This document shows positions 1-64,000 of a stretch of 64,000 nucleotides of DNA, piece after piece (the stretch's first letter is position 1; each line of letters begins with the position of its first letter). This stretch comes from Phoronis australis. Its lineage: Eukaryota > Animalia > Phoronida. The notes under the pieces were generated by a model that was not told where the DNA came from, made no database searches, and saw nothing but the letters and a program-made list of their open reading frames with translations. The translations under genes were made by a program, and so were the position numbers. The stretch is from the NCBI GenBank assembly GCA_002633005.1, contig NMRA01000335.1:62001-126000 (forward strand), written 5' to 3'.

Positions 1-380
1 AAAAAGCGTGTACTTTGTGCGAAACATTGAATTTGTGCATGCAGCCAAGTTTTAATGTAATTATAAACCCGCTTTCCATCGCAACTTTTGATTTAGACTT
101 CTTAGCGGTTTCACTAAGGTTCCCCAAATTGGAGGTGAAATCAGGGCTGAGTGAGGGACGTGTTGAGACCAATTTTATGGCGGTAGGTGGTTTATATCAA
201 AACTTAGCTTGTTGGACGGAACGCGGATTATTTAGCCACTTTAGCAGTTTTAGAAACGCTTTGGATAAAATCACTCGCGGAGATTACAGTATTTAGGCTG
301 AATATAATCAAATGAGAACAGTATTTGCAAATATACATCCGTGGTGGTGATAGGTTATAAATGCACTATTCTTGATTTAG

Positions 381-1024
381 GTACTTGTAATGCAAGACAA
401 CCCCTTGTACGAACCAAGCGACAACAAGGACAGCTTACCAGTGAGAGCGCCTGTTATGATGGTAGGCTTTTTCCAAGGACGCAACGAAGTAAAAGTTGTG
501 GGTGAAATTACCAGTCCTCTTGTCATCACACATAAACTCTTTGACGGCGTACCCTCAGCTGACGCCAACAAAACTAACGGATCGCGATGCCATCCCTCCG
601 CTGATGACCCAAAGAAAATGGTTGTCCACCAATTTGTTATTCCTAAAAATTCATCGTTTCACATTAAAGTCTCTGAGTGTCTGTATGCTAATAAGGTTTC
701 AAGGAACTATAATGTCACGACCGGAAACTCCTCTACCTTCTCGTCGACAACATCTTCAGAGACAACCACTCAGCACCTCGGGCGGACCACGCCACATCCG
801 GAAGTTGAGCAAAATGATATTTTGTCAAAGTTATATGAACAATATCTCTGCTCAACGAAGTTCAGTGTGTATATCAAGCTCAACAAACGTGTGGAATATA
901 ATGACTTTGACTTTCATTGCCAGTTACCAATCAAGCCGCACAATTTGACTAAAGAAAATGATACGGACGCTCTGGTGAGGATAGATTTATGGACGTGTTT
1001 TCAATCGAATGTTGATATTCAAAG
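381..1024 (+). CDS. Gene A exon, GAIN region with Ser/Thr-rich loop
   Basis: ttag|GTA CTT GTA ATG ... AG|gtaatg; homologous to 58784-58147 (KKMxVH, YLCS, VxxKLNxRVE, DFHC, DLxTCF). Confidence 0.88.
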
Positions 1025-4000
1025 GTAATGTCATACATACCAAAAAAATCTCTTCAGAAAATGTCTACCTGCATTTTTATGCAACCACACATATATGTGT
1101 GGCCGCATATTGTCGTTATTTGCGTGCGGGCATCCGTGAGTCTGCTCGATATTTCAACTCCCTGGTCGGATTTTGATGACAAAGGGTTTAGAGCATCGCT
1201 AGAACGGTTCATACCATTTCTCAATCTGCCCTTCTCCCTAGGGTGGATGGGGGGCGTGGCGTTGTGTGTGGAGGAGCGCTCCGAATGATATCTAGAGCGG
1301 ATTTTAATGACACAAAGCAAAGGAGTGTGACATCAATGCGCCGTAAAGAACAGAAAACCAGGCGGATTCAACCACTGTAATACCTCTTAGTGTCCATTTT
1401 GTTCTCGACGCAGGGGTTTTTAAGTGTTGACATAGAAGTATATTATGAGATTGTGGCGGCAACATTTACATTTCTGCCGGATTCGACTGCTGCAGTACCT
1501 CCTTATACAAAGGTGGGTGTTATCAATGCGCCGGCACTATTAAATTCTCTGCTGGATTCGACTACCGTTGCACCCCCAGTGGCAATATTATTATCGACAA
1601 AGGGTTTTCAAATGTTGTTTTGCGGAAGAGCGTTTCCGGATGATATCTGGAGAACCGATTGGTAGATTTCATTGAGGCTTGACTCAGAGGTATATTATGA
1701 AATTATGGGGGCACCATTTGATTTTCGGGTGGATTCGACTACTGTATTGCCTCCTAGTGGCCATTTTGGGTGAGATTGTTTCCGCATGTATTGAACTGAG
1801 TGAAGGATTTCAATGAAAATTGACGTAAAGGTTTGGTGGCACCATAAACACTTTCGGGTAGATTCGACTACTGTAGAATCGTTTTTGGTTTCGACATGGG
1901 CTTTTCAAGTGTTGTTTGGAGGAAGAGCGTTACCGGATGACATATAAAGAATCAATTGGCAGATTTCATTGAAGCTTAACACAGAAGGTACATTATGAAA
2001 TTGCAACAGCACCATTTGAATTTCGAGACTATTCGACAACTCCAGTGCCTCCTAGTGACCATTTTGTGTGATAGCGTATCTAGGTGATAGTTTAAGAACC
2101 AAGCGATAGATTCCATTGAAACTTATTGCAGAAGGTGTATTATGAGATTGCGCCTGCAGCATTTGATTTTCGATCAGATTCGACAACTGCAGTGCCTCCT
2201 AGTGGCCATTTTTTGAGAGCGTTTCCGGATGATGTGTAGAGAACCGGGAAGAGTATTTCAATGGAAGTTGGCCCAGACGGTTGTAATGGCAGAGTGGAGG
2301 CACCATTAAATTTTCTAGCAGACTTGACCACTGTAGCACCTTGTGACCATTCTGTTTTCGACTGGGGCTTTTGAAGGGGAAGTGCGTTTCCGGATAACGT
2401 TAAAAGAACCGATTGACTTATTTCATTGAAACTCGACATACAGTTATGTTATGCGATTGCGCCGACATCATTTGATTTTCGGCCGGATTCGACAACTGCA
2501 GTGCTTCCTAGTGGCCATTTTGTGTGAGAGAATTTCACAGTGATGTGTAGAGATTCAAGTGAAGGTTTTCAACGACCGTTGACAAAAGTGTTTGTAATAA
2601 CAATGCGGCGGCTTCATTGAATTAGTCGGATGGATTTGACCAGTGTAGCACCTAGTGGCCATTTCGTTTTTGACATAAGCTTTGACGTGTTTTTTGGGAG
2701 AAGAGCGTTTCTGGATGACATACTGTATCTCATGTAATGTCAGTGGGCGATCACCATTAACGTTTTGCGCGGAATCGACTTAAGAAGCATCTCCAATGTT
2801 CATTTTGTTATCAAGGTACCTTCAATTGTGGTTTGGGAATGAGAAATTCTGGATAATATCTAAAAAGCGATTGACTGAAGTGAACAAAACTCGACATCAC
2901 AGATATGTGTGAAATCTATTCGCCTGACCATACGTTTTGGGGAATGATTTGTCCACTACAACAAAGTGACATTTCACGTGTTAATTAGAGAAATAGTGTT
3001 TCTGGATGGTATCTAGGGAATCGATTGATGAATTTCAATGAAACTTAGCATAGTTATCTATGATGACCATATCCCGTCACCCTTTTGTTCCCAAAAAGGG
3101 GATTTCCAAGTGTTGCTTAGGGGAATAGCATTTCCAGATTTTATCTTTAAACCTGATTGGTGGTGAAACTCAATGAAAGTTTGCTCAGTAGTACGTGAAG
3201 ACAATATGGCAGCACCATTTGATTTTCCGTCTGAGTCGACTATTACGATGCCTAGCAATGGCCCTTAAACTCATATCGTATGCGATGCAACGTGGTTGCA
3301 TGTCAACACCCCAGCGTTGTTCTTGTTCCAAATGTAAGATTACGTCATGTTTTAAATCCGTTCAACAAGTGAGTTGTAATACATCTGCTTTGATTCGGGT
3401 TATTTGACTCCCAATATTCATTTTCCTAATCTTGTCTACAGGAAATTAGCTTTGTCACCTCTCAAAGGATCTGATGGGATAACGGTTTACTTTGGTGTTG
3501 TGGTAAAGAAACCTGAAATGTCATGCGCAAATGGGACCGACACAATGCAGACAGATGGAGTTCGAGGTATGTCATCTAAATAGGCTATAAAAAGAGAAAT
3601 GATTAAAACATTGTTCACGTGTTCTGTTGTGCCATTAAGCTACTAGAAGGGATAAGATAGGTCTGTTAATACTCCTTACCCTGATAGGGATTGATTTCTG
3701 TTTCCAAGAAGGACATGGAGACGAACAGCCATTCAAGAAAACGCACAGGGATAGGCGGCTGTAACAGTAACTCGACTTACATGTACAAAAATGAAATTAA
3801 AAAAAATCGAATGATTAATTTAATTGTTTCGAAACTCATTAAGTACGTCCCAAGAAAGGAAAAGGATATTGGAGGAACATTTAGCAACCAGAAATGAATA
3901 GTTTTCAATTTCACAGTAAATCGTGCTGAAAATGTGACTGGCCAATCAAGACCTGAGATGGGTATTGAACAGGCTGATAATAGTGGCATTCCGGCTGAAT

Positions 4001-7000
4001 ACTCAATTTGCATATTAATTGTTAACCCAGTGCGTAATCAAACCTCCTTCTCTGCTTTGTTACAAACAATGTCTGCGATTAGAAGATCCAACGGATTTTG
4101 CCTGTGTGTTAGGGTGACTCTTCAGGATTTGTAACAGACGAATTTTAAAGACTAAAACCTGTGGAACACTTGACACGGAATTTCTCTTCACTGAGATGGC
4201 ATTTGACTACACAGTTGATTTTATATTAAACTGGGAAAACGTGGTCAGAACTCTGTTAGATCTTGTCAAGCAATTTTTTTCCAACAATATTTGGTAGTTT
4301 TGTAGTACCTTGGCCGTGGATTTCAAGTCAGAGTTAATGTGACATTAAAACTAGCCGCGAATTGTATTGGAAATGGACTGACTTTTGCAATGAATGAGTG
4401 CGTTTAGCGACTCGCGGTTTTGGAAGAGATTTACCCCAAATTGAAACAAGTTCTTGTGGAATTGAAATGAATATTGAGTCACGGTTTTGTGCATTAAAAT
4501 TTTGTGGAGTTTTGGCGTTGTATATTTCCTTTTGAAAACTATTGTTCTAGTTTGCGTCATTTGCGACTGGTTCATTTTTGTACCTTGCACTGACGGAGAA
4601 CTTTACTCGAAAGGTGTACCATTATTTATATTGACATTTTTACTGCTTATTCCTTTGTTGTGGTTGAGTACATTGTCGCTGTTGCGGGTTAAAGGAAGTA
4701 AACCTCCATCACCATGTAAAGGGGTCAAGGTCTATTGTCCGGGGGTTATACTAGCCAAAGGTTCGATAATCCGCGGGTTTGATTATCCAAAGGTTTGATA
4801 GTCCGACACCGAAACTCGATGTCTCTGCGTTTTGAAGTTTCTGTTGTCGGGAGATTCTGTAGTCGGTTCCATAGAATCTTTGAACTAAAGAACCTGCAGA
4901 CCATAGAGAGCTCTACGTTTTTACAATTTTTGGTGCAAAGAACTTTCGGGTTTTGAACCTTTGGATTTTAGAGTTTTTTGTATTTCCTAACATTTTTGAT
5001 TAAATAGTTCGTAAAATCGAACTTTCGGAGTTCGGGCCTAGCAACCTTCAGATCAACGAGATTCGCACCCACGCAAAGCTTTATTTACACGTTCCTTTTT
5101 ATTTACAAGGTCGTAAAAGACTTATAGGAATGCGTAATCAGGTGTTCAGACATAACTTAAAGTCGGTTGCGTTGTCGCTTTATTTCCGACCCTTTTGTTC
5201 ACCCACTACAGACGCCGGTGAAATAATTAAAACCTCATCCATGACAACTGTCACCTTTCAGGCTGTGTTGTACCATATTTATTGACTTCATTCTCGTTTA
5301 AGAAGGATACTCAGGAAATCCGAAAGAGGAGTCCTCCGCATATCAGTTCACTACCTTCTCCTCTCAGTGTAAAATCTACGATGAAGATATGGCGACATGG
5401 GTATCCACAAACGATGAAGAGGTAACACACCAACGTTCCAATGAGTTTTATAATTCTAGTTCGTATCTGTACGAGCATCCGTTCAGAGTGTAAAATAATG
5501 TAAACACCATACTTAAGGCTAAGCCTGCAATGTGTTAACCTTGATTTTGCGTTGAAGACGAAGGCAACCTTTTTCCATGTCATTTTTAGCAAAAGTAAGG
5601 TTCGTTGTTTATCCCACATATATTTTTCACTTATTTACTGCTTTTCGTAATTTAATTAATTACTCGTCGTCTACTCCGGAAGTGACGTTTTGGGAGGCAA
5701 GAATTTCGCGCCAATTCCTTTTCGTATAGTCTGACTGTGAGAGCAGTCCAGTCAGTCGTTGTTCTATTTCGGTTGTGATAAGTTCGGTCGTCGTTTGCTT
5801 TTGCTTACGAGTCATTCAACATGCCACGCTGTTGCTTCGTACTGGGGTGTGCTCATTATCGTCTCACGTACAGAGGAAGAATTGTCCCACTTGCCCGAGT
5901 GTCCCGCGACACACTCCCACTGAAGGGTGATCTGAGCACCTAAACTGCTTACATCCCGCCGTGTGACTCCATCGCCACACACCTGGCACCTTCCAAATAG
6001 CTCCAATACAAGTCCGCAATAACCTTATCGAACTTAGGCTCACCGATCTGTTCATTGGATGACGAACTGTCCTCTTCACTGGGTGTCGAACTGGGCCTGT
6101 ATTCACTCCCACTACTCAACATCGCTGCAGGGCTACTTACAGGCTCTGGGCTAGAGACAACATCACAGGGCGAATCACTGCTAGTTACCGGAATTGTACG
6201 CAATGGGGTACGTTCGGAGGCACGGGTGAAAGTAGATGAAGTGCCTCCAGTCACTGCATATAGTGGCCACAGCTCGCGAGGCTTCTCGCTTCAAAAACTC
6301 ACTTCTCGGGGTTGGCGACGGGGCACTGCCGGGAATCAACAGCGACGGTATGGTACCCTTCTTCAGGCGTTGTTTCGCAGGGACCTTCAGTGTACATATC
6401 TGTCATAATCTGACGGCAGAAAATGCTTGCCACGCACTCGGTAATCCTCCACTGCTTTGTACGTTGCGTGGACGGGTAGCGCTGCGTTCTTCACATGAAC
6501 GAGCTAGCCAAGTACGGCGAAGTGTTTCATCCTTCGGAAAGCGACGCAAGGTACCCAAAGCGCGTGTGAGACGATAATGAGTACATCCCGGCACGCAGCA
6601 ACAGCGTGGCATGTTGACTGACTTGTGAACAAAAGCAAACGACGACCGAACTTATCACAACCGAGGTAGAGCAATGACTGACTCGACAGCTCTCACAGTC
6701 GGACTATATTGAAAAGAAATTGGCGCGAAACTCTTGCCTCCCAAAACGTCACTTCCGGAGTAGAGGACGAGAAATTAATCAAATTACGAAAAGCTGTAAT
6801 TAAGTGAAAAATGTGTCTGGGATAATCAACGATCCTTATTTTTGCTCAATGTGACATGAAAAAGGTTGCTTTCGCCTTTAAGTTTTCGTATGTTACGACA
6901 GCAAAATGAATGGAAAAGTACCAAGCGCCTTTCAGCAACTGTCGGAAAGAGCAAAGGTTTACTTGAGACTCGATTGAACAATTGGCAGGTTGTATGGCAT

Positions 7001-10000
7001 CTGACTTGCATGGAGTAAACTTTTCAACTTTTTTATTAATCAATTTGTGTGAGAAACGTCTGTTAACATTTGAAAAGTGCACATTTTACCAGAACGGTAG
7101 AGTAGGCGAGTAACTTGCTCTGTATAACATTTTCATTCTACTTAGTTTAATTTTAAGGTTGGTCCGCTGTCTAATCAGACGCACGTCCAGTGCAACTACT
7201 ATCGGCTGTCTGTACCAACAAGTAGTGAACCAACAAAACGAAGGAGAAGAGAAAACAGCGAGAAAACCGTCGATAAAAACATGATACCTCCTCCACTCCA
7301 AGCTAGACCAACCACCTTTGGCTGTGGGTTTTCGGTTCCAGTAAACACTATCAATCCATCCGACTCTGCTTTTTTAAAACTCGACTCCAATCCAGTTATC
7401 TTTGCTGTTATGGTCGCCATCATCTGCATATATCTGGTGATCGTGATATGGGCGAAAAGAGCCGATAAAGATGATGCATTGAAGGTAGGTAGGAAATTAA
7501 CGTTTTCAGGTCACGAATCACTCATTTCTAACAATATTGAAGTTAAACAACATAGTTTCGGCATAAATCCTGTCTTAACATCTTCTTTGTCAAATTTAGA
7601 AGTGAAGCCGTACTTGGGAAGAACTGAATATGTGTTAACACAGTTAATTTACAGGATTTATTCGAACGAGTTGGCCTTCGTAATTCACCAAAAGTATGCA
7701 CAAAAACGACATCTGTGTTTTAACAGCCAACTCGTTAGGCGACATGTTATTCCATGGTACTAGAATTAAAGCAATGTGGACATTGATGTCACGTGACCTT
7801 ACCTGATACGTCAATATGAGGTACTCTAACTTTCATAAAAAAATTCGGTTTGAAACAAGACACCTCAGATGTGACAATATGGCGAGATGACTAATGGACT
7901 TCTGGTTTTACGCCAGATCCCGTTTTGTTGTGGTAAATCTTCTTCTCAGAGGAACGGTGACGTAGGACGGACTTCGAGGAAGTGCACACAAATAGACTCA
8001 CGGTGGTAACCTGGTTAGGTCTTGGTGGGCATGAAAAACTCTGACTGTTTGACATGTTCAAAATTTGCCAGCGAGGACATACACAAGTTTCAGTACTAAC
8101 GCTTTACGTTTGACACAGCACTGGGGTCTTCGTCCTATTGCATGTTGCCAGCGTACGACAGCGTTCTTCAACTGAGCCAAACACAATTTCGTTACCGTAG
8201 CAAGGCATAAAGTTCTTTTAAGTCGTGGCTTTTCTTGTATAGATGCAACCCTGGCTCTAACTCAGATGGACTGAAGCACCAGCAGTGACCCCATCGCTAG
8301 CAACTACAAAAATAGTAAAACTATTTTAGTCCTGGCGGGGGTCGAAGTATAGTTTTGTCAGCAAAATAACTTGGAGCATCCTGATAACCGTTTCCGTCTT
8401 TCCACAGCAGTTATTGTTGTTTCAGGATATATCCTGATTGGTGGCTCTGGCATGTCTTAAGACAGGGGCAAGCGCATTTTTGGAAGAAAAATCCCATTCA
8501 AATGCCATACCAACGGACAGTAATCGGGAGGAGGGCCCGTTACTCACCTAAGTCCGCCTATTTATCTAATTGATTAATTTGTGGAACATCTAAAAACTTA
8601 ACAAGGCAACTGGAAATCGCGCACAATCGATAACATAAGAGAATAATTTATAGCGAATATACCAAAACGTCGATCAATCTGTTGTTAATATATACGCTAA
8701 TTTTAAAGTTCGTAATCATATTTTGGCCAAAAACGAATGCGATCAATCGATGACACCTGGAAGGATTTTCATGATGCAAGAGCAGAAACGTGGCACGATG
8801 GTGCGATAGTAGAGTGTAACATACGTAGCGTGTTGCCATTGGGTGAGTTTGTTATGCGGTGACTGGGTTCTGAACACCTACATGACGTCAAATTAAACAC
8901 TTGTAACCGTGTGGGATGCAGAATAAGTGAACGTAAATGTTGGGGGCAACGCAACGTATTTTTATGCCGCGCACTGTTTCAACATGCCCTCATCGTGAAC
9001 TCCGGGGGCACTGCAATAGATTCCGCTTTAACTGGAGCAGTGTAGACGTGTGGGAAATTTTATACGTTAGAGTCAGTATGTTAACGGATTTCAATCCTCT
9101 TTTTTCAAAAATTCAGTTACAACTAAGACGACAATAATTTTACTTTCACCAGATTTAAAATGTTGTAACAACGGAAGGGAGCTTGTTGTAACATCTTTTT
9201 GTAGGTTGGAACCACCTTCCTTGCTGATAACGACCCCTCCGATAGGTATATGTACGAACTTACAGTTTACACTGGCTCCAAGGCTCATTCAGGAACTACA
9301 TCAAAGGTGTCGATGGTTATTAGCGGACTTATAGACGAAACTCCCCCCAGACTGATATGTGATGATACTCGACCTATACTACAAAGGGGAGACATCAATT
9401 CATTTATAATGGCTGTCCCATCATGTCTTGGAACTCTTACACATTTACGGTATTGATTTATGCGATCTTTTTGAAATAACGATAAATAGTTCAATTTTAT
9501 ACATTACCGTCTACTACTATTTTGATAAACGTGTTGTGGAGAAAATGTCTTTCAATTCCAACCCTCTGGAAAGCTATGATTGAATTCGCTGTTAAGCGAA
9601 ATTAAACATTGTGAGAAGTAAACTTGAGGTACGTGTCATATAGCGTTACTTTAAGATTTGATGAGGACGAAACATTGTTTTATAGAATTCCAGTTAGAGC
9701 ACTAGTCAATCTATAGCGAATTTTACTCATGCTAGAATCAGCTGGAATTTCTTTTTAGAGTGTGGCATGACAATTCAGGCAGGGATCCGTCGTGGTTCTT
9801 CAGTCGTTTAGTCATTGAGGATCTGCAAAATGGTCAAAAATACTTCTTCATTGCGGAAAAATGGCTTGCAATCGAAGAAGATGGAATGGTTAGTGTGTTT
9901 AAAATTAGTTGATGAATTTTAAACAAGAAGCCGTGGATAAACGTATTTTTGGAGGAAAATACCACAAAGGAAACTCAGTTGAATCGCTGGAAATTGTCAA

Positions 10001-13000
10001 TAAAATAATAACAACTTTTGGTCATGATATAAATAGAAATGATTCACGATTGCATGTACATTCTGTTTAATTGTTCGTCAGTGACTTTAAAACCAATAAA
10101 TGGTTCAAAACAATACTATAGTAAGCCTACGTCACCCCGATGTCCAACTGGTAAGAATCACACAATCGCGCCAAGAACTCGGATAGAGATGTTTTACTAT
10201 AGCATTCTTGTTTCAAGAGAGTTGAGCATTTTATTTGTTAATCAGCAGTGTTTGTTTCGTGTGAAGACTCAGTGATAAAGTTATAAACTTGATTGTATCT
10301 CATCATTCAATTAGGCAATACTCTAATGGGTTGACAAGGTGTGACTACCGATATCGCTTGAAATCAAACACAGTCACTACAACCAACTAATCAACTGGAA
10401 TATTTGCAATTAATTATAACGCTAGTCACAGTGCATGTATATGCTAACAATTTTAATGCTATTTTAAAATGAAGTCGCCAAGATGTTGCTTGCAATGAAA
10501 AAAATTTCAGATTGACAGAATCGTACCTCTGGCTGGTGGAGACGAATTGACTGAGTTCAACCATTTGTTCTGGACAAAGGCAAGAAAAGACCTCTTTGAC
10601 GGGCACCTGTGGTTTTCTGTTGCCACCCGACCACCACGCAGCTCGTTCACCCGCGTGCAGCGTCTCACGTGCTGCGTCTCATTGTTGTTCAGTGCCATGT
10701 TGGCGAATATCCTGTTCTACGGCACCGACGACGGGGCTGCCCCTGCCTCCTCGTTCACTTTCGGTCCGATTACTTTCACTGTACCAGAGATTCTTACTGG
10801 TATATACAGTAGTCTGATTGTTTTTCCCATAAATCTCATAATAGCTCAGATATTCAGGTATTCAAAACCGCCAAAAACAAAAGCGGAGAAGTTAAGAGAA
10901 GATCTCATTGAGAAAAGACTTAAAGGACCAAACGAGAAAAGAACCATAAAAGAACTCGAACACGCTCGTAACATGCTTGATTATCCAATGCGATATTATG
11001 ACGATTCTGAATTTTACAACTTATCTGTTGTCGACGACTCTTTGTCTGTATCCACGGAACAGTCGGGTTCTATAACAGTGAAACGTAATGATAAAAAGAA
11101 GAAATTTCGTCTACCATATTTTGGCAACTATATCGCATACTTTTTGTGTCTCGCCACTTGTGCCGCTGCTTTCTACTACACCGTAGAGGTAGGAGGTGTA
11201 TTTGGTGCTGCAAAATCCAATAAATGGATGATGTCTTTTGTCGTCTCCTGTATTCAAGACATTCTGCTGTCACAACCAATAAAGGTAGGCTTAACTATCA
11301 AAACGTCCTTTCTACGCCAATTTGTAGGAACTCCAGCTCACGTTTTAGCAATAAAGGGAATGGTGGTATTTTTTTAGGAAATATAGACATCGTTATATTT
11401 TCATAAAAGTTAATTTTGTTTAATATTCTATTATTTATGTTATCGGCAAATAGACTGCAAGCATCACAAATTTCGGAATTGAGCTTTTTGTTGTGTTATC
11501 TCAAGGTTCTTCTTATGGCTATCTTCTACGCGCTTGTTATAAAGTCACCCGTTGTCGACGACGATATGGACACAGATCCTTACCCAAAGATTCAGCAGAA
11601 ATACGGAGAAACAAACCTATGGAAGCGAAAGTATGCCCAATACCAAAACATGCCTCAGGTAGTTGACAAGGAATTGGTGAAAAAAGCCAAAGAGAACAAG
11701 TAAGCAACACATTGCATGTAAGCATGTACCGCTACAATGTGCTGTGCTCGACAGAGGAGTGATTTGGTAACATAGTTTGTCGCGTGTTTGGTTGCATGCT
11801 GTTTTGAAGTGGTTCTTGCCTTAATGGTCTTTTTGGCATACCTAGACTAGAAGCATGTCTGTAGACACGGATTTTAGGTAGAAACATCTAGAAACATAAT
11901 GTGTCCAACATTTTGCAACGTGTGTGTCATTTACTAAAGATGCATCTATTCACGAAGTCAGTTAGCAACACTTTTCTTTATGTCTGTGTTTTCGACACAA
12001 ATCCGCACTTGGTAGCGCCGGTTTTCAATTCATGAGCAAATTAATGATGACAGTTTGCAGACGCGACCATCTAGTACAAGTACCTGCTAAATGTCACATT
12101 GACAGTAACATAAAAGCAATTTGCATACACATAAGATTAATGGGGCAAGCCTAAACTACATTTAAACATGTGCTGTCCTTTTTGAATTTTAATTGGCGTT
12201 ATTGAATAAGGAATTTCTATTGTTTGGGAAGCCATTTTTGTAAGAGATATGCATGAAACAGAATTTGTTCATATTATTATCCTTATATGTCTCGTAGCAG
12301 CAGGTGCAGAGCAATATATGCAGGTTCCTCCAATAACTTTAAATGTCATTTTGGTCCTTGTACGGTAGTTGGTTCAAATCAGCTCATTTTATGACTTCTT
12401 TTTCCTTTTGAACATATAGGGCGAAAGAAGCTGAAATGAACAGAGTCATATTCGAAATTGTTCGATACGTGATTTTTCTGTATCTACTGATGATGGTTGG
12501 CTATGGAAACAAGGATCCGTGGGGTTACCAGTTAAGACAAACAGTCGCTGTGGCGTTTGAGGATGGCCATTACGGTGAAACCGATTTTGGCTCGGTAAGG
12601 TTGCAAGGTCAACATAGAGTTTGTTGTGACAGTAACATTTGTTATCTCTATTAATTTATAGTTTTAATACTTTATTGTATTATAATGCATATTACTGTAT
12701 CCTGTTGTCGAGGGCCCTCTTGGAAAGAGTGGTGATACTGACGAGGCCACCCTCATTTTAAATATAACATAAATAAAGAAATAGCATCAACAAAAATTGT
12801 GTCCAGTCGTTCCCAAAGCGATGAGTTATTTCGCTTTTTATGTTATTGATGCAGTGGACTATCCTTTCATTGCTATCGAGAACCAATAAGAGGGCTACCT
12901 CATCATCGGTATCGATACTGGGGTGGTTAGGAACTGTACAGGAATGTTAGTGACTTTTGCGAACAGGCGGGTGGGGTAAACACGAGCACTTTTCGCAGGC

Positions 13001-16000
13001 CATTATGTCAGACGTTTCTCTGACCAGACAATTCGGAGAAGACTGCACTCGGTCAATCTCCAAGCGTGTACACCCGCCAGGAAAACCGCAATGACCGTCG
13101 ATCACAGTCTGGTTCGTCTGCAATGGTGTCGGCAACACCAAAGAACCAAAACATGTGGCATTGGATGGCCGGGTCAGAGTATGCAGGCGACGTGGATAAG
13201 GACACCTGGATTGTTGCGCGGACCATGTAACAGCCTTTGGTGGTAACAGTGTTGTGGTTTTTGGGCTGGCATATCCACCATTGGAAAACAAGGCTCGACA
13301 CCATTGGTGACAACCTAAATGCGGTAAAGCACCGAGACAACATTCTGCAGCCAGTGACAATCCTTAGTCTTCAACGTATAGGACCTAATTCAAGCTTTCA
13401 AAATGACAACGCGACCCCCGACCTAGCAACTCTTGCGACAGACCACCTGCGCCACGCAAGAGTACAGCAAATGGAATGGCTCACATGAAGACCAAACTTG
13501 CACCCTTTCGAACACCTATCAGTCAGTTGTTTAAAAAATAAAATATTTAAGTCTTGCTCTATCGTCATACGTTTTTATTACCATTGAACCAGTGGCGTAA
13601 TTGCTATTGAAATATTAACTGAATGTCGAAACGTGAATACACATATAGCTCCACCTGAATTTGTAAAATTCACTTTGAAACCAAACCCTCTCTGGCAGCA
13701 AAGTTACTCAACACGATAAGCCTTAGAAGACAAGATGTGGTATCACTTGAAAGGTGAATTGCTGGGGTTTTCATTGGTATACCGTATAATTTAACTAAAC
13801 CAAAAATAAAAAACATGGGCTAGTGAACTCTAATTTCCGAACTTTAGTTGAATGTTTATTTAGAACTCTGCTCAGCCGTAGCGAGTGGGCGAATAGCACC
13901 TGTGTCACCCTGGCGTCAACTGAGGAGGGGCGCTGATGTGACAAGGTCTTTGAAAAGTTTTCTGTAGAGACAACGCAAATTTGATTTAAATTATGACTGT
14001 ATTTTCTGTTTGAATAGCTTCACAGATATTCGCTTCCTCCGCATATTTTCTATCATCAGGTCGAACATTTACGAAGTGTATTGCCAATGGACAAACTAAC
14101 AAATTAAAATGGAAGAGAAAGCACAAGTTGTGTTTTTAAGTGTGTGTTAACGAAGGACCGCTACTGAACTATTCGAAGTGATAAAGTTGAAGGAAATATG
14201 AAAGAACTCCCTGGGTCTAGTTTTGCCCCATTCCTGGTCGGCACTAGTTTGCCACAAGTTTGGCCTCCCTACAGGTCCTCACCAAGTTTCGGAATAACTA
14301 ATTATCTGTCTGTAGAGGAAAGTAGTAACGATTCGTCTAGTTTCTTTCAATACTGCGGGAAAGCGCTGCCCCCAATTTCATGGGTGAGGCTCACGTCCCT
14401 CTGTCCCCGCTCCCCATCCTTTGAGAAAATATCTCAACGTAAAACAGAGATGCCAAGTTAACTCTGAATACTTCTGAAAGAGTGCCCCCTGATGAGCGCG
14501 AATGGAAGTTTCCTACGAATAGGCGAACATTGACGTCCTTTTTCATTGGCACATGTTCATATTATGCCTTTTCAAAGTCGTTATTCCAGCAGTTAAGGTT
14601 TGGATGACGTCATTGGCGCATTTAGGGTTGTCTAAGTCAAGCTGCAAAAAACTTCAAGCTCATGATTGAAGCCTACCTCTTCCGTGATACATTTGAGTCT
14701 TTTAACTTTGACGACACCACCTACTCCTTTGCTGCGAGAAAGGTCTACGAAAGAGAGTTGAGTTTTTCATGGACAGCATATCCTGGTCGCATACTTGTTC
14801 GTCCTTAAGATTTATTTGAATTACTTAAGGGGTTTCATTATGGATTCATTGTAGTTGAGGCTTACAAACTAAAACAATGATCTTAGGACATGAAAGATGT
14901 TTTAAGGGCGCATTTCGGTGTCTTTCCCCGCCCCCGAATGCTAAAACTCAGGACCTCGCTTTACCGCATAACAAGGATCTTCAGTACCCTCGTGAAACGA
15001 AAGTTTAGTAGCACTCGGAAATTTGTATCCAGCAATGGTGTAGTCTTCTGTGCGCCGCTTCGACGATTGTGGCACTTTTTAGGGGATGACAGCCCTCCTG
15101 TTTACTTACTTAGACCAGTGGGCTGGGTGTGAACATGGCAAATCTCCGTTGTTGGACTGGTAAATCTTATCATGCAATTCCATCTATGAAAATAAAACTG
15201 AGACAACGGAATTGGCTTTTTGATACTAACTTAGGTGAGATTTGATTTTTCATGTACATGTGTTTATACAGGGCAGCCGCAATTCTCATAATTTTCCACA
15301 ATGTGTAGCGAAAACAATGCAGGGTAGAGTTCAGTAACTCTAAATGTAGATCTAGCGAGATTCTACCGTTTATTTTCATTGAGAGCACGTGGCTTTTCTC
15401 GCCGCAGGACAGGAAACTCGGATTTAACTCTTGGTATTTTATCGGGATACCTTTCATTCTATTCAGTTGCACACGTCAAACTTGACAAAATACATTCTAC
15501 TCTATGTCTGTATCCTAATGTTCTATATTTCTAATCATTGGTTAAACCAACCTTTTTCGTCTATGGCATATTTTTGAAAATAAAACACTCAACCCTAGTG
15601 AAAAATGTTAACTTTATCAATGTAAGCTGACATGAATAATTGCTCATGTAATGATCTGTCTTACAGATATCTGATTTCGACTCCGTTTGGAATTACCTTG
15701 ACAACGCATTTCTTCCGGGGCTTTACGGTAGTACGTGGTACAATGGCAAGAATTACTGGTTCACCAAGAACTTTGCCAGCGATCGTAACAATTTCATGAT
15801 GGGTGGTGCTAGATTACGTCAAGTTAGGACAAGGAATGGTGAGAAAGCTGTTTCAACAATGTCTTAATTTTTGAGTTAAGAGTGATAAATGTTTACGGTT
15901 CTATTAATGTCGAACGTTTATAGGTGCTATAAACCAACGTTGCATCTTAAAAACAACTTTAGGTTTAAACCAGCGTTATGAAATTGATTTCAATTTGTTC

Positions 16001-19000
16001 TTTTGTAAAGTTAGAGATAATGCCAGAGCTTCTAAAAATGAGTCTACGTTCTTCAAATTGTCCTGTTACTATACGTCAGTATTTGCACCGAGCAAAGTTT
16101 AAAGGAACTATAAGCGAAAAGCCAGTTCTTTGCAAACAGAAAAGTCCCTTCTCACCTGAGAAATTAACACACTGAGACTAATTCCATAACCGTAAGCTGT
16201 CAAAATCAAAACGCATCTCTTGTATTTGTAGCTATATGGCCTCTTTAAATACAGAGTTCACGAACAGATACCAAACCCTCTTTTGTTGACATCACACACT
16301 AGATGCTCTGCCACATGCCACTGAACCATTCGTTCTTTTTCCTGTTATACATGTACGTGTAGAAAGCGTTTAATTGATATTTAGAAGAGACGTTCTTTCC
16401 AGAGCCGTAGTTTAACTGACCAAAGCGTTAGTAAGATTTGTTCCTTTATATGAGTTTGCCAAAGTTACTGGGCATACTTTTGTTTCAATTTCTCGGCAAA
16501 CTTTTTCAGAATCCTGTGAACATTTCATCAACGTTTACTTCTCCCCTGCTGCATGTCGAAGACAGTATAGCTTCGGCAACGAAGACAGAGGTCGCTACAA
16601 CAGCAAGTGGCGTAGAGTCAACGAGTCTGGTAAGAACTTTTTTACGCCTGTGTTCTGTAACTGACACCATGTACTTAGCATTAGCTACAATTAGTACATG
16701 AACGGTTTCATTACCACACTGTTCTCTTACTTTTCGCATTTTCGTAACATTGCTGGTGACAGATATGCAACAAAGTATAAAGGATTTTAGGTTTATGACT
16801 GGCTAAACCTCTTGGAAATTTCTTCAAAATTCCGAAGCTTTCTAATTTCTTTTCTGGCATGAACCGTAAAAACGACCTTTTTGCCAAAAATCTTTACGTG
16901 TCTAAAACTTTCAACCGCATGACACACCTTTCCAAAAACACGCTCGCCCAATATAAAGTCAACCCAGTTACTTTTTGTTTGCAATTTTATTTTAGACATG
17001 TTAGTATATAATAAATATCAAACATTAAAACTTAACAAAATGTTTATAAATAGCCCAGTCATCAGGGCCTCCCGCGCGTGAGGCAGCAGGGCATGTTAGT
17101 CTGGTTTCGTGAATGTTAAAAGGAAAATCGGTCCTGTCTATTTTTAGAGCGTACAATGAACGCTCTCTTTTAATTACAGTTGCTACACCCGATTTATCAA
17201 TCATAACCGTGTCCCTTCACAGAGTTTTGGTATTGTTTGGTTTTTGGTATTAGTGTTTTTCAGAAGATAAAATGTAACACGTATGGATTTCTACTTTGCA
17301 CTACTTTGTGATTCCCCAAATGTAATATAAAAATACGTACTCGGTGTTATTAACCAGTCGCATCGTAACACATTCCCGGTCATTTGAGAAAATTATGTAT
17401 GAAGTGAATTATTTATCTTTTGCTTCTGGTATAATCAAAAGTTGCGAAAGGCTTTAGTGACTATAGAGAAAGTGACACTAATTCACTTTTAGACCGGGAT
17501 CCCAGAGTTTTTGGGACATGAACAGTTAACCGATTTTCTTTGATACCACAGTGATCCATAAGCATTCCAATGCTAGGACATAGCCATCTGGCAGATTTGC
17601 TCTGGCGGGTATGTTCAGGGAGAAACTGAAAATTGAGCTAAATCACATATACAAATACCTGCGACACCTACTACTCGATTCGCTGTGTCAAAATGGTCCA
17701 ATGCCAGTCAATTTCAGTGGTGGGGATGATAAACTGACTCTAGGAATTAAGCTAGATCAACCCAAGAGGTAACCGCATGAAACTGAGTACAAATTATTCA
17801 ACATAGACCAATGTATCATGAATGAACTCAAATTCAGTGGTGGATTACCCTCGCCAGACACGCCCATATCTCTGAGTTGAGTTAGATCAAACCACCAGAT
17901 AACCAGTTGAAACCAACTGTACAAAATCCAGCATCACTTCACGTTGTGCAGTCGCCATACGATTTCAATGTTGGGGTGAAACTGTCAGATAAAATTGAGC
18001 CCAGCAACACGAGAGATAACCAAATAACATCGGCTCCAAAATATTCAACATAACCCCATGTATCATGAAAGAACACTAACAGAAAAATCCAGCAATGGGT
18101 TAACCCTGCCTGAGATGCCCAAACCCCAGACTGGAGCTAGATCAACCCTCCAGGTAAGCAGTTGAAGCCAACTGCATGTCGTTCAGCATCACTCTATATG
18201 ACACAACTGTTATGTGCCAGACAATTTTAGTAGTGGGATGCCACTGCCAGACGCAAAGTAACGGGATTAACCCAAGAGGTAAGCAGTCGCAAAATAGTCA
18301 ACATAAAACTATGTGTCATGTATGAACTTTATCCGAAAAGTCCTGTGGTGGGTTACCCCCGCCAGACACGACCAAACCTCTGAGTTGAGTGAGATCAAAC
18401 CACCAGATAACCGGTTGAAATCAATTGTAACATATGCAAGATCACTCCACATGCTACAAATCAAAATGCCAAACAATTTTGGAGGTGGGATATAACAGGC
18501 AGACGAAATAAAATTTCAAAAAGTTTTCGAGAAATCTGATTCACGATGAATAAGCACTGCTCGATACCTTTGATTGTGATTCAAATCAATCAATTCTATT
18601 TGAAATTTCCTGGCCGGGACGCCTTTGCCATTCAAATGCAACTATTGTAGACAAACTACTTAATCTGATCCTACTTCCACTTGTTCCCACGTATTGCAAG
18701 ATAGTACATAATCTAAGTCAAGTGTGCTAACTCAGTTACACTACTGATATTTTCCGTGCAATGTTAACATGACTACTTGTTCGCATTACAAGATGCCACA
18801 GTTATGTTTTATCTTCTTTGCAATGGAGCCGGTTACCCAGCGTGAGCACCAGAGCCTTTCAACTCCTCCTGGTCACTTCCCGAGCATGGTGGTACTCCTT
18901 TTCTACAACAAATCAACGGGATCACCCTAGTTTCAATGCGTTACTCAAGGACGCAATCGCCAAGTCGTTAGACATTTACTAGTTGATTCCACTGAATGGC

Positions 19001-22000
19001 AATTTGTGAATTCTAAGAACCATGATTTTGAATGTTGTAAGATATGAGAAGAAGGCATTCCACAAGTTTCACATATATGGTCTCGTCGTCATCCTTGAAG
19101 CTACTTTGTGCGGACACGCTAATTCGGAGACTACACCAACATCAACACTGTCATGTTCATCCGTTCAAATCGGTGAATAGAATTGATGAAATTCTCCTCA
19201 TTCTCTGAATTTGGGGAATGAAGTAAACGATCTTATTTATTGTCAATGCTTGTACTGTAGGATATTTTAAAGGCGAAACCATAAGCGATTTTTCAGACAC
19301 CATTTCCACGGCAAACGGAATCATTTCATATATTCGTTTAAGTCCAGTTATTATTGAAATTACCACTTTGGTGACAACACCTATTCACATTGGCATATAA
19401 TGGTGATGTGTAGTCACTCCCAGCGAAGGTCTGGTGTCTGGGTGTCCGTATTTGGATTTTGAGAGAACGTTTACAGTGTCAGACATGTTGATAGATCTCC
19501 TGCTTTTTCCCATTTCCCGCAGTCTATAATTTTGTTCGTTCATAGTTTTGATAGCCGTCGTTGCCCAAGTGTCCCAATAAAGATCCCCGAGACATCCAAA
19601 ACACTTCTGGGATCCTGGTCTATTTAGCCTAGTTTTAAAAATATATGTTGAATTGTTTCATAGCTCCTAATACATGGGAGAATGACACCGCATGGTATTG
19701 GCAATCAGCTGACGAAATTGGAGGTATCGACAGAGGTGGCGAGATAGGAACCTACAGCGGCGGGGGATTTGTTGCGGATCTCACATCTAGTGTCAACCTG
19801 GCAGAACGTAAAATACGAAGTCTGAAAGAGAACGACTGGATTGATCGAAATACTCGAGCGATCTTCCTAGAGTTCAATTTGTTCAACCCGCATCTGAATT
19901 TGCATACCGTATCAAATATGTTGATAGAGTTCGATGCCAGTGGAGGTAAGTGAACGCAGAAAATTTCGTGACACACTTCTCTTACGTCTGTAAGTAAACC
20001 AATATAATAATGTTATTTTAGCAGAGATGCCAGTTCACAACGAAAAGATGCTTTTCGCTTTTTCTCGTTGATTTTACTGCGTTTTCACAGTACCTGATAT
20101 ACGTAAATAGGTTGTAAAATCTTTGCAAAGGGCCCATTACAGGTGTGTATTTTACCCGTTAACGGTAAATGATGTACAGAACATCTCGATTCTGAACTAC
20201 ATCTGCGGAATAATTTCAGTGCGAAGCCAAGTCTACATGCATATGAGTACGGCTTGTCATAATTACATTTGCTTTAGGTTTTGCATTAATGTTGTTTTAA
20301 TATTATATGTGTATCGTCATGAATTTCTTAACATCGAGGAATGCACATACTCTTAATTAGATGGTGTTTATAAATTAACATTGAAAAATAATAACGTATT
20401 TAGAAAATAATTCACAGACTTACATGGCCTTCAACATTGAAAATTACAAGCTGAGATTATGTTTTTAGTGGTCTTGATTGAGAGAATAGAATATGTTCAT
20501 ATGCAATCGATATTCAAAATTATGCCCACATGTTGTACCTAGGTTTTGATAAGTTGAACGTAACAGCATTCGCGATATTTTCACAGATTTATTTTTTTTG
20601 AATTTTCTGAGAATAATGCTCACGCTCAGAAACGTCGAGATGAGTTATATTCAATAGATTTCTTTAGGCTTAGACAGTCCGTACTCTAAATGCATTGTGT
20701 GTCTGTAATGTGGGCCGCGGACTGTTACGTAGCATGAATCGTATTGTTGGTCATGAATACCGTTGCTGTCCTAAATGATGGATCAATTTCAATTATTCTT
20801 TTCAAGGAGCTATTCCCACTTTCGACGCTTACATTCTTCGACTTGATCGGTATTCCGGAAGTGGTTTGATGATTATTATACTAGCCGAAATCGTCACCTA
20901 TGGTTTTACAATATACTTCATTGTGGTGGAAACGAGAAAAATTGCAAATCAGAAATGTGACTATTTCCGGGTAGGTAAACTTGCGTTCTTTTTTTTCTTG
21001 ATAAGCTGGTCTTAGTTAGGACATGTGCACGTCATTATGGGCGTTTTCAGGGTCATACGTCTGCGTCCAAACGAATGCATTTTATAGAATTTCTTGTGTA
21101 AAATGCGATCGAGTAATGTCCTTACCGTAAAACTCGGTACTTAAGCACATATTCCTAACTATGAAGTTCGCAAATGACTACATGTGCGGATAATTCAGGT
21201 TCTCTCGACTAGTTTGTCAAAAGGCATTAATTTTTTGCATAACTCTTGCGACTGTTGAATTTCATTGCGACTGAGAATTTTTTTGGGTCGTGTAGTTGTG
21301 TTGCCCCAAACGAATCAACTGCTTACTGTTGAAAGCGTGTATACATACTCTGCAGGTGACTTAGCTGTGGCACTAGGCTCAAAAACACTAAGACGATCGT
21401 AAATATATTTGGTTCGGAAATGATGCATCCATTTGCATTATTCGAAAATGTTTTTGGTAATTTATTGCCTTTTGTGTTAGCTAAATGCCGATTTATCACA
21501 CTGTAAATCAGGAAACATAAAACGTACTATTATTTTGACGTTACGGTGAAGGTCACCTTAAGATTCTTTGAATTGGACTGTTGCAAAATCGTTATGAAAA
21601 ACGCTGGAGCAAGCACAATGCCATACTCGCGCAGTGTGTGTCGGTCATGATGGTGTTTGCTATATTTTGGAAGTGAAAGCAAATCCAAGAAGTGGGTCTT
21701 TACGCTACTTTCGATTGTCCCACGACATGTTGATACACGCCGCCGCGGGAAGAGAACAATAATTAATCTGTAAAATTCCCAGAAACGGCTGATGACAACG
21801 AAAAGACCAGAGCTTTAGATGTAAGACAGTTAGCTTACCAGTGCATCCCTATTAAGTCCTTTTCAAGACAATGGTATTTGCCGCATGTCTGTCTCGGGTG
21901 AATAGCGTAACATGCCGCATCCCCACTTTTGACTATGAATATTGCCCAACGCTCACAATCACACGTCTTATTTGCACTTTTCAGGAATTTTGGAACGTAA

Positions 22001-63674: not shown

Positions 63675-64000
63675 CTGAAATGTAAAAATAACACTGCTTA
63701 TGATGTAACCAGTCGCTACCAAGATTAGAGATTTTCTTTCAACAGTGTTAACAAGTGTTGATATCAAAATAAACCTAATATATGAAATTAAAACTGCTGC
63801 CTTGTACACCTAATGGCAGCCCAATGTCTAGGCAATTACATCGCTCTAGATGCCGCAGGCATACAGGGGCGATAGTAAATCCCCACAAAAAGTTACAAAT
63901 TTCAAGGTACAGGAAACAGAATAAAATGAAACATGCATATATGCACATGGAGTTATAATTAACACATACCATAAGTCTGGAGACGATTCAGTCAAGATAA

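What the first reader, a model, noticed from the sequence alone, without database searches (positions are those of the whole stretch)
7158..7350. GPS autoproteolysis site replaced by an inserted furin-type cleavage loop (gene A)
Seen: the spliced GPS reads C-KIYDEDMATW..VQC-NYY-R-L-[SVPTSSEPT KRRRR ENSEKTVDKNMIPPPLQARP]-TTFGCGFSVP, with KRRRR at 7236-7250. Established: PKD1-family and adhesion-GPCR GAIN domains self-cleave at C-x3-H-L/T-x-F (human PKD1 CLTRHL/TAFG), exposing a tethered stalk, and furin-like convertases cut after R-x-K/R-R. Here the catalytic His is Arg and 34 residues sit exactly between the L and the T-x-F stalk strand. Inference: self-cleavage has been swapped for convertase-dependent cleavage, leaving a ~20-residue Pro-rich cap on the stalk. 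That would be a regulatable processing mode that I do not know to be described for polycystins.
Basis: partly seen in the sequence, partly recalled or inferred. Interest (0 to 1): 0.88.

Follow-up and report, generated by a model that had tools for sequence, protein, structure and literature searches.

The report
Furin loop replacing polycystin self-cleavage site
Two neighbouring invertebrate relatives of the kidney-disease protein polycystin-1 lack the self-cutting histidine and carry, exactly at the usual cut point, an inserted loop with a furin-type motif that a cellular protease likely cuts instead; similar loops occur in separate animal lineages, and no cut has been shown.

Summary
Observation confirmed. 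Exon 7158-7484 of a PKD1-like gene reads C-N-Y-Y-R-L, 34 inserted residues (KRRRR at 7236-7250), then the T-T-F stalk. Its paralog in the same window (55355-55675, minus strand, spliced in RNA reads) has the same His-to-Arg change and a 32-residue insert with RKRR. Database searches gave 15 more PKD1-likes with a long insert at this spot (brittle star, crinoids, brachiopod, unnamed records). In all, 10 of 17 inserts hold R-x-K/R-R, against 1.0 expected from shuffles; 0 of 49 canonical H-L/T proteins have the motif near the site. A tree needs 4 changes and rejects one origin. AlphaFold models of two homologs keep the GAIN fold, with the insert as a disordered loop between the last two strands. 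Best reading (0.68): self-cleavage is lost and a furin-like convertase cuts the loop. Against it: 7 of 17 inserts lack the motif, such motifs also sit in other GAIN loops beside intact sites, and nothing was tested biochemically. The same swap is known for SEA domains (MUC1 versus Notch) and was suggested for ADGRF4; ten literature searches found none for polycystins. New variant of a known kind.

The parts
7158..7484 (+). Gene A exon with the last GPS strand, the insert, the stalk and TM1
7191..7208 (+). C-N-Y-Y-R-L: GPS strand; Arg at the catalytic His position; second GPS disulfide Cys absent
7209..7310 (+). 34-residue insert at the scissile turn
7236..7250 (+). KRRRR, R-x-K/R-R convertase consensus; predicted cut after 7250, leaving a 20-residue cap on the stalk
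   Evidence: cleavage inferred
7311..7388 (+). Stalk (T-T-F-G...), last GAIN strand and linker to TM1
   Evidence: homolog models
5306..5421 (+). Gene A exon with the first half of the GPS (C-K-I-Y...W); acceptor could also be 5303
   Evidence: junction to 7158 not seen in reads
381..1024 (+). Gene A GAIN subdomain-B exon (the gene's 5' part lies outside the window)
3442..3566 (+). Gene A GAIN exon
9205..25426 (+). Gene A downstream exons: PLAT, TM2-5, polycystin (TOP) domain, PKD channel domain
55355..55675 (-). Gene B (paralog) exon with the same layout, 64% identical to the gene A exon
   Evidence: downstream junction in 3 reads
55529..55624 (-). Gene B 32-residue insert; KRKRR at 55583-55597
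39173..63809 (-). Gene B span in the window, tail to tail with gene A (the exon at 63345-63809 is assigned to it by inference only)
5552..6881 (.). THAP-domain transposon with long inverted ends, inside the intron that splits the GPS of gene A; not part of the mechanism

Best explanation
Genes A and B encode polycystin-1-like channel subunits whose GAIN domain lacks the catalytic histidine and carries a 32-34-residue loop at the normal cut point, so it likely cannot cut itself and is likely cut in that loop by a furin-like proprotein convertase. Steps: (1) SHOWN in sequence: His replaced by Arg, insert between Leu(-1) and the Thr/Ser-x-Phe stalk, R-x-K/R-R in the middle of the insert in both paralogs. 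(2) PREDICTED from homolog models: the GAIN fold persists, the stalk still docks as the last strand, the insert is an exposed disordered loop. (3) INFERRED: no autoproteolysis in the ER. (4) INFERRED: a convertase cuts after the last Arg in the late secretory pathway or at the surface. (5) INFERRED by analogy with PKD1 and Notch: the two fragments stay non-covalently joined through the buried stalk until force or ligand parts them; the membrane fragment then starts with an 18-20-residue cap ahead of the stalk. The outcome, a severed but assembled receptor, is the same as in PKD1, but timing and tissue would depend on a protease.
For: The paralog keeps insert, frame (one 6-nt indel) and motif; 15 of 32 aligned insert codons keep the residue, 7 of them by different codons, while 29 of 47 conserved stalk/TM codons differ synonymously, so the copies are old. 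Of 121 stored homologs with sequence ahead of the stalk, 87 are canonical and 34 are not; 16 of the 34 have a long insert by my reading, 1 dropped as a cluster-mate. With genes A and B, 10 of 17 inserts hold R-x-K/R-R versus 0.99 expected from own-composition shuffles; background is 16 of 1936 30-residue ectodomain windows in 41 proteins. Within 60 residues of the stalk: 0 of 49 canonical versus 6 of 16 non-canonical proteins. Residues after the motif are ST x4, DT x2, SI, NA, EN, ES, as usual for convertase sites (own knowledge). Tree of stalk to TM5 without the insert, 29 rows: 4 changes; one clade of inserts rejected (p-AU 2e-31), one clade of motif-bearing rows rejected (p-AU 3e-6). Models: P0132 GAIN, mean pLDDT 77, loop 419-439 under 50, matches uncleaved BAI2 through the stalk (8oek, Z 19.4, rmsd 3.3, 248 aligned, to residue 452), and the match to the cleaved latrophilin-1 N-fragment ends at the residue before the insert, at L837. 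P0081 gives the same pattern (8oek Z 13.8, rmsd 3.3, 171 aligned). Gene B is transcribed on one strand and spliced at the exon's downstream border. P0081 is 3,763 residues on an 11,646-base contig, so likely a spliced transcript that keeps its insert. Precedent: MUC1 autoproteolysis and Notch2/GPR126 furin cleavage fall in the same SEA loop (PMC6954182).
Against: 7 of 17 inserts lack R-x-K/R-R, among them 2 of the 3 closest insert-bearing relatives of the window genes (P0001, P0095) and the Lingula protein P0083. P0001 has a motif 89 residues upstream instead. The motif also occurs in other GAIN-region loops of proteins with an intact H-L/T: 8 of 36 canonical proteins within 400 residues, so a motif need not be a substitute. 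The 17 rows are not independent (A/B, P0132/P0196 and probably P0102/P0103 are kin), so the shuffle P of 4e-11 overstates the case. The search profile contained the motif; among 7 inserts found without scoring it, only 2 have the full motif. PKD1L1 and PKDREJ are described as not cleaved at the GPS (PMC9672506), so uncleaved polycystins exist. Stalk confidence in both models is only about 61-63 pLDDT, and both are homologs, not the window proteins. RNA depth over the inserts is about one read per run. No biochemical evidence.
Confidence: 0.68

Rival explanations
1. The GAIN domain is simply non-cleaving, as described for PKD1L1 and PKDREJ. Once His was lost the turn tolerated a loop, and the basic run is not cut in vivo (shielded by O-glycans, or used for binding polyanions).
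For: 7 of 17 inserts have no motif, including close relatives P0001 and P0095. A further set of His-less GPS variants has no long insert at all. The inserts are Ser/Thr-rich. Uncleaved PKD1 paralogs are described, and GAIN cleavage is dispensable for worm FMIL-1 (PMC13684637, passages).
Against: The basic residues are ordered as R-x-K/R-R followed by S, D, N or E in 10 inserts, including P0105 (shuffle p 0.003) and P0132 (0.016), whose inserts are otherwise poor in Arg. The motif recurs in separate clades and is kept in both old paralogs.
Confidence: 0.17
2. The loop is cut by a convertase, but the purpose is ectodomain shedding or turnover, not a PKD1-like primed heterodimer. Such sites are one of several convertase sites that these proteins gain in any exposed GAIN loop.
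For: Motifs sit about 345 residues ahead of the stalk in 5 hemichordate proteins and about 90 residues ahead in 2 coral proteins, all with intact H-L/T; His-less P0001 and P0151 have the motif 89-104 residues upstream.
Against: In both models the stalk stays docked in the sandwich, so a cut alone should not release the ectodomain. The stalk Phe is nearly invariant in both alignments.
Confidence: 0.09
3. Self-cleavage survives at a shifted bond (R-P|T in gene A, R-P|S in gene B), since the Thr/Ser nucleophile position and the Phe are kept.
For: Both window genes keep Thr or Ser two residues before the stalk Phe and share A-R-P just ahead of it. Lingula P0083 keeps H-L-S at the start of its insert.
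Against: No His base, and a flexible loop removes the kink that PMC3321182 describes as needed. Most other insert-bearing homologs have Met, Ala, Val, Ile or Gln at +1.
Confidence: 0.04
4. The insert is an intron or an optional segment that is spliced out of the mature mRNA.
For: Reads over the inserts are too few to exclude a minor isoform. GT and AG dinucleotides exist inside the exon.
Against: No in-frame pair that removes the motif scores like the 14 modelled introns (true donors 6.1 bits or more, acceptors 7.3 or more; best internal donor 5.6, best acceptor 1.3; the matrix was trained on those same introns). Removal would not restore His. The insert is conserved at protein level between paralogs and present in a likely transcript (P0081).
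Confidence: 0.02

Closest known systems
Polycystin-1 (PKD1) and cleaved PKD1-likes (PKD1L2, PKD1L3, sea-urchin REJ3)
   Same: GAIN/GPS, stalk with x-x-F-G, TM1, PLAT, polycystin domain and channel domain. Human PC1 is cut at H-L|T and its stalk starts TAFGASLFVP (PMC6992733).
   Different: No His; a 32-34-residue loop with a convertase motif sits at the scissile bond; a predicted cut would leave a cap ahead of the stalk.
Canonical members of the same invertebrate subfamily (Lingula P0004, Mytilus P0003, hemichordate and crinoid PKD1-likes)
   Same: Nearly the same stalk and TM1 signature; nearest canonical relatives in the tree.
   Different: They keep H-L|T and have no insert.
SEA domains: MUC1 (autoproteolysis) versus Notch2 and GPR126 (furin)
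   Same: One fold, one loop, either self-cut or furin-cut, with the halves staying together (PMC6954182, passages). This is the working analogy.
   Different: Another fold; the swap has been shown there, while here it is inferred for GAIN.
ADGRF4 (adhesion GPCR)
   Same: A furin consensus about 30 residues ahead of the tethered agonist was suggested to substitute for autocatalytic cleavage (10.1101/2022.07.14.500097, one Discussion passage).
   Different: A 7TM receptor. The passage offers a suggestion, reports no test, and does not describe an insertion at the scissile turn or repeated origins.
PKD1L1 and PKDREJ
   Same: PKD1-family proteins that lack the H-L-T/S tripeptide (PMC9672506).
   Different: Described as uncleaved. 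Whether their GPS holds an insert or a convertase motif was not checked: no sequence of either was retrieved.
Furin or other protease sites outside the GPS in adhesion GPCRs (BAI2, BAI1, GPR125)
   Same: Protease processing of GAIN receptors, some not self-cleaved.
   Different: The BAI2 site lies far upstream, between CUB and TSP domains; GPR125 is cut by several proteases, metalloproteases among them.

Membership tests
PKD1-like (polycystin-1) family | PLAT domain right after TM1 | tested here: met
   Pfam PLAT on exon 9205-9453, E 0.003, half-domain, below the cut-off; 55-70% identity to the PLAT region of P0081 and P0083, which pass the cut-off
PKD1-like (polycystin-1) family | Polycystin (TOP) domain and PKD channel domain | tested here: met
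   PF20519 E 2e-21 and PF08016 E 3e-18 on gene A exons
PKD1-like (polycystin-1) family | REJ domain and PKD repeats in the ectodomain | not testable with these tools
   Outside the window for both genes, and no genome is held. Present in P0081, P0083 and P0132.
GAIN domain | GAIN fold with the stalk as last beta-strand | tested here: inconclusive
   Met for homologs P0081 and P0132 (Z 13.8 and 19.4 to BAI2 GAIN). The window proteins are split over exons and were not folded.
Autoproteolytic GAIN/GPS | His at -2 | tested here: not met
   Arg in genes A and B
Autoproteolytic GAIN/GPS | Leu(-1) bonded directly to Thr/Ser(+1) in a kinked turn | tested here: not met
   34 and 32 residues lie between them
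Autoproteolytic GAIN/GPS | Pfam GPS (PF01825) above its cut-off | tested here: not met
   No hit on either single exon (the motif is split by an intron, so this is weak). 0 of 6 insert-bearing homologs pass; canonical P0004 passes.
Proprotein-convertase substrates | R-x-K/R-R motif | tested here: met
   RRRR|EN and RKRR|ES
Proprotein-convertase substrates | Motif in an exposed, flexible, luminal loop | tested here: inconclusive
   Upstream of TM1 in sequence; a low-confidence coil in both homolog models; not modelled for the window proteins
Proprotein-convertase substrates | Demonstrated convertase-dependent cleavage | not testable with these tools
   Needs expression and N-terminal mapping

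The most novel reading that the evidence does not exclude
Invertebrate polycystin-1-like proteins have several times independently traded GAIN self-cleavage for a furin loop placed in the scissile turn. This defines a convertase-gated class of GAIN receptor in which the cut, not the self-cutting chemistry or a free stalk N-terminus, is what selection keeps. Surveys filtered on the GPS motif would miss the class.
Probability: 0.55. Interest if true: 0.8.

Novelty: new variant of a known kind. Interest (0 to 1): 0.64.

Why it matters
Why GAIN domains cut themselves is still debated for polycystin-1 and adhesion GPCRs, because mutations that block the cut can also disturb folding and traffic. If these natural variants are cut by a convertase, cleavage can be switched off with an inhibitor or an Arg change without touching the fold. 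That separates the need for a severed chain from ER self-cleavage and from a free stalk end. Repeated origins would argue that the severed heterodimer itself is the selected feature, and would extend the MUC1/Notch pattern from SEA to GAIN. All 6 insert-bearing homologs tested miss the Pfam GPS cut-off, and the large GAIN survey filtered its entries on the GPS annotation (supplement of PMC11697300), which may be why the variant was overlooked.

Tried and rejected
No genome is held for the window, so other paralogs and convertase genes of this animal were not checked. Word-based search with the gene A exon: 0 of 34 candidates significant. Metagenome contig scan with the two-exon alignment: 203 pattern matches, none confirmed. 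Run search: no RNA holder listed; three raw-read runs came by species label. Most reads laid on 300-12700 came from the intronic transposon and gave no junction for gene A. Foldseek alone found no match at E 0.001 or better for the P0081 model; GAIN chains ranked from E 0.006. The ESM Atlas gave no answer for the window exon; for homolog P0105 it returned PKD1-like clusters only. Earlier findings of the scan: none by sequence or place, and 8 by words, on viral, protist and other eukaryotic GAIN proteins, none about a furin loop. PMC4258472 (Liao 2014, GAIN/ZU5/Nup98 survey) was not held. No vertebrate PKDREJ or PKD1L1 sequence was retrieved. No complex prediction was run: a stalk docking into its own GAIN would pass by likeness to solved structures.

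Full report
Observation. The finding lies in a 327-nt phase-0 exon, 7158-7484, with AG and GT borders. It reads C-N-Y-Y-R-L (7191-7208), 34 residues (7209-7310) with KRRRR at 7236-7250, then T-T-F-G, a linker and a hydrophobic helix. Downstream exons carry PLAT, polycystin and PKD-channel domains, so gene A is a polycystin-1-like gene. Seven modelled exons from 381 to 11284 join without a stop.

A paralog in the window. On the minus strand lies gene B, matching gene A exon by exon. Its exon 55355-55675 is 64% identical and has Arg at the His position, a 32-residue insert with KRKRR, and the same I-P-P and A-R-P near the end. In the insert 15 of 32 aligned codons keep the residue, 7 through different codons, and the only indel is 6 nt. 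In stalk and TM1, 29 of 47 conserved codons differ synonymously. The copies are old and the insert behaves as coding sequence. No in-frame splice pair that removes the motif scores like the 14 modelled introns, with the caveat that the matrix was trained on them.

RNA. Three raw-read runs and one contig set were laid twice. For gene A, depth was 0.12 over the GPS exon in one run, with no junctions. For gene B, exon reads came from one strand; the GPS-exon to PLAT junction was seen in 3 reads of one run and the next junction in 5 and 2 reads. The bin holding the insert had mean depth 0.59, 0.61 and 0.31, and the flanking intron bins 0. This shows that gene B is spliced and expressed; it is thin evidence for the insert itself.

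Relatives. A search with the TM2-5 exon gave 80 proteins. The nearest named ones with a GPS, from Lingula and Mytilus, share the stalk signature but keep H-L|T without insert. A profile of the two exons found 103 proteins among 1.84 billion representatives, and a search with P0132 listed 27. Of 207 stored proteins, 141 matched a stalk-TM1 profile and 121 scored 10 bits or more with at least 8 residues ahead of the stalk; 87 have His-Leu/Met/Phe at the site and 34 do not. By my reading 16 of the 34 have a long insert; I dropped P0184 as a cluster-mate of P0102. The other 18 are short His-less variants, fragments, or one register shift. Named insert-bearing proteins come from Amphiura, Antedon (two), Anneissia and Lingula; the rest are unnamed records, four of them with a stalk like that of the coral proteins (my inference).

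The motif is not chance. With genes A and B, 10 of 17 inserts hold R-x-K/R-R (8 of 15 without them); shuffles of each insert's own residues give 0.99. Background is 16 of 1936 ectodomain windows. Within 60 residues of the stalk the motif occurs in 0 of 49 canonical and 6 of 16 non-canonical proteins. Caveats: the rows are related, and the profile held the motif. Among the 7 inserts found without scoring it, 2 have the full motif. Against strong bias, the insert proteins whose match spanned the motif score 36-79 bits on stalk and TM1 alone, near or above the 35-bit floor (a different profile, so only approximate).

Repeated origin. A tree of the stalk-to-TM5 region, insert excluded (29 rows, 459 columns; seven fragments and the distant rows left out), needs 4 changes of the insert label. 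AU tests reject one clade for the 10 insert rows (p 2e-31) and for the 7 motif-bearing rows (p 3e-6) (a 45-row quick tree also gave 4 changes). Genes A and B sit in a five-row all-insert clade (95/94) near Lingula and Mytilus proteins, which suggests a spiralian animal (inference). Since exact regain of H-L|T is unlikely, I read this as several gains. In that clade P0081 has the motif, while P0001 and P0095 do not.

Structure. The window proteins could not be folded, as they are split over exons. Two homologs were. P0132 GAIN (mean pLDDT 77) has a strand at 407-412, a coil under pLDDT 50 at 419-439 that holds the motif, and a strand at 443-450. It aligns to uncleaved BAI2 and BAI3 GAIN through residue 452 (Z 19.4 each), and to the cleaved latrophilin-1 N-fragment up to residue 415, opposite L837 (Z 17.9) (GAIN chains also lead the wide search). 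L837 is the residue before the scissile bond (PMC3321182). P0081 (mean pLDDT 63) gives the same pattern at lower scores. The insert is therefore predicted to loop out of the scissile turn with the stalk still docked, though stalk confidence is only about 61-63.

Mechanism. Autoproteolysis needs His, Leu, Thr and a sharply kinked turn. His is gone and the turn is opened, so self-cleavage is very likely lost. The loop offers a convertase consensus on the luminal side. In PC1 the exposed stalk raises calcium permeability (PMC12513491). Whether a capped stalk works here is open; for ADGRE5 an N-terminal fusion did not block it. All steps after the sequence facts are inferred.

Against. Seven of 17 inserts lack the motif. 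Motifs also occur in other GAIN-region loops next to intact sites (8 of 36 canonical proteins within 400 residues). PKD1L1 and PKDREJ are described as uncleaved. Nothing was tested at the bench, and no evidence bears on 'regulatable'.

What is known. Ten full-text searches listed no paper that, by title, abstract start or the passages I read, describes a convertase loop in the GPS of a polycystin. I read term-matched passages, not whole texts, of 15 papers: 10.1101/2023.03.12.532270, PMC11697300 (supplements searched), PMC6954182, PMC9672506, PMC1934368, PMC5318412, PMC12716839, PMC4890752, PMC13631675, PMC6992733, PMC13197933 (first 300,000 characters, no 'furin'), PMC3321182 (supplement searched, no hits), PMC12513491, 10.1101/2022.07.14.500097 (103) and PMC13684637. 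The library lacks most subscription papers, bioRxiv supplements are closed, figure alignments cannot be seen, and Liao 2014 was not held; any of these could show such inserts. Precedents found: the SEA-domain swap between MUC1 and Notch2/GPR126 and the ADGRF4 suggestion.

Verdict. A real, conserved and recurrent variant of the polycystin GAIN domain. It is a PKD1-family protein but not an autoproteolytic GAIN by the two features tested, and it most likely works like a furin-cut SEA domain. New variant of a known kind; confidence in convertase cleavage with a retained heterodimer 0.68; interest 0.64.

Noticed in passing
window 5552-6881: THAP-domain DNA transposon with about 310-bp inverted ends in the intron that splits gene A's GPS; diverged copies are abundant in RNA reads from both strands.
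   Followed up: partly
proteins P0099, P0101, P0200, P0201, P0202 (hemichordates); P0055, P0205 (corals); P0170: R-x-K/R-R runs in other GAIN-region loops of PKD1-likes that keep H-L/T, about 345 or 90 residues ahead of the stalk. These proteins may be cut twice.
   Followed up: partly
P0083 (Lingula XP_013386005.1): Keeps H-L-S and then has a 36-residue insert without a convertase motif; sister to canonical P0004 (100/99). A possible early stage of the change.
   Followed up: partly
P0120, P0135, P0146, P0147, P0149, P0151, P0154, P0157, P0159, P0162, P0177: His-less GPS variants without a long insert; two have a convertase motif in an upstream loop.
   Followed up: no
inserts of 14 proteins with both ends: 13 of 14 are 27-36 residues long despite separate origins. 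This may reflect a need for protease access or a bias of the search profile.
   Followed up: no
window 26201-27839, minus strand: Broken frames between the two genes that look to me like a non-LTR retrotransposon remnant; no Pfam hit.
   Followed up: partly
window 12980-13488: Tc1/mariner transposase remnant in a gene A intron (PF01498, E 7e-10).
   Followed up: no
window 1500-3200: Repetitive intronic stretch in gene A covered by diverged RNA reads from one strand, deeper than the exons; probably a repeat expressed elsewhere.
   Followed up: no
PDB 9y6s, 8glv, 9fqr chains: Flagellar doublet-microtubule proteins match both GAIN models at Z about 13; the chains were not identified.
   Followed up: no
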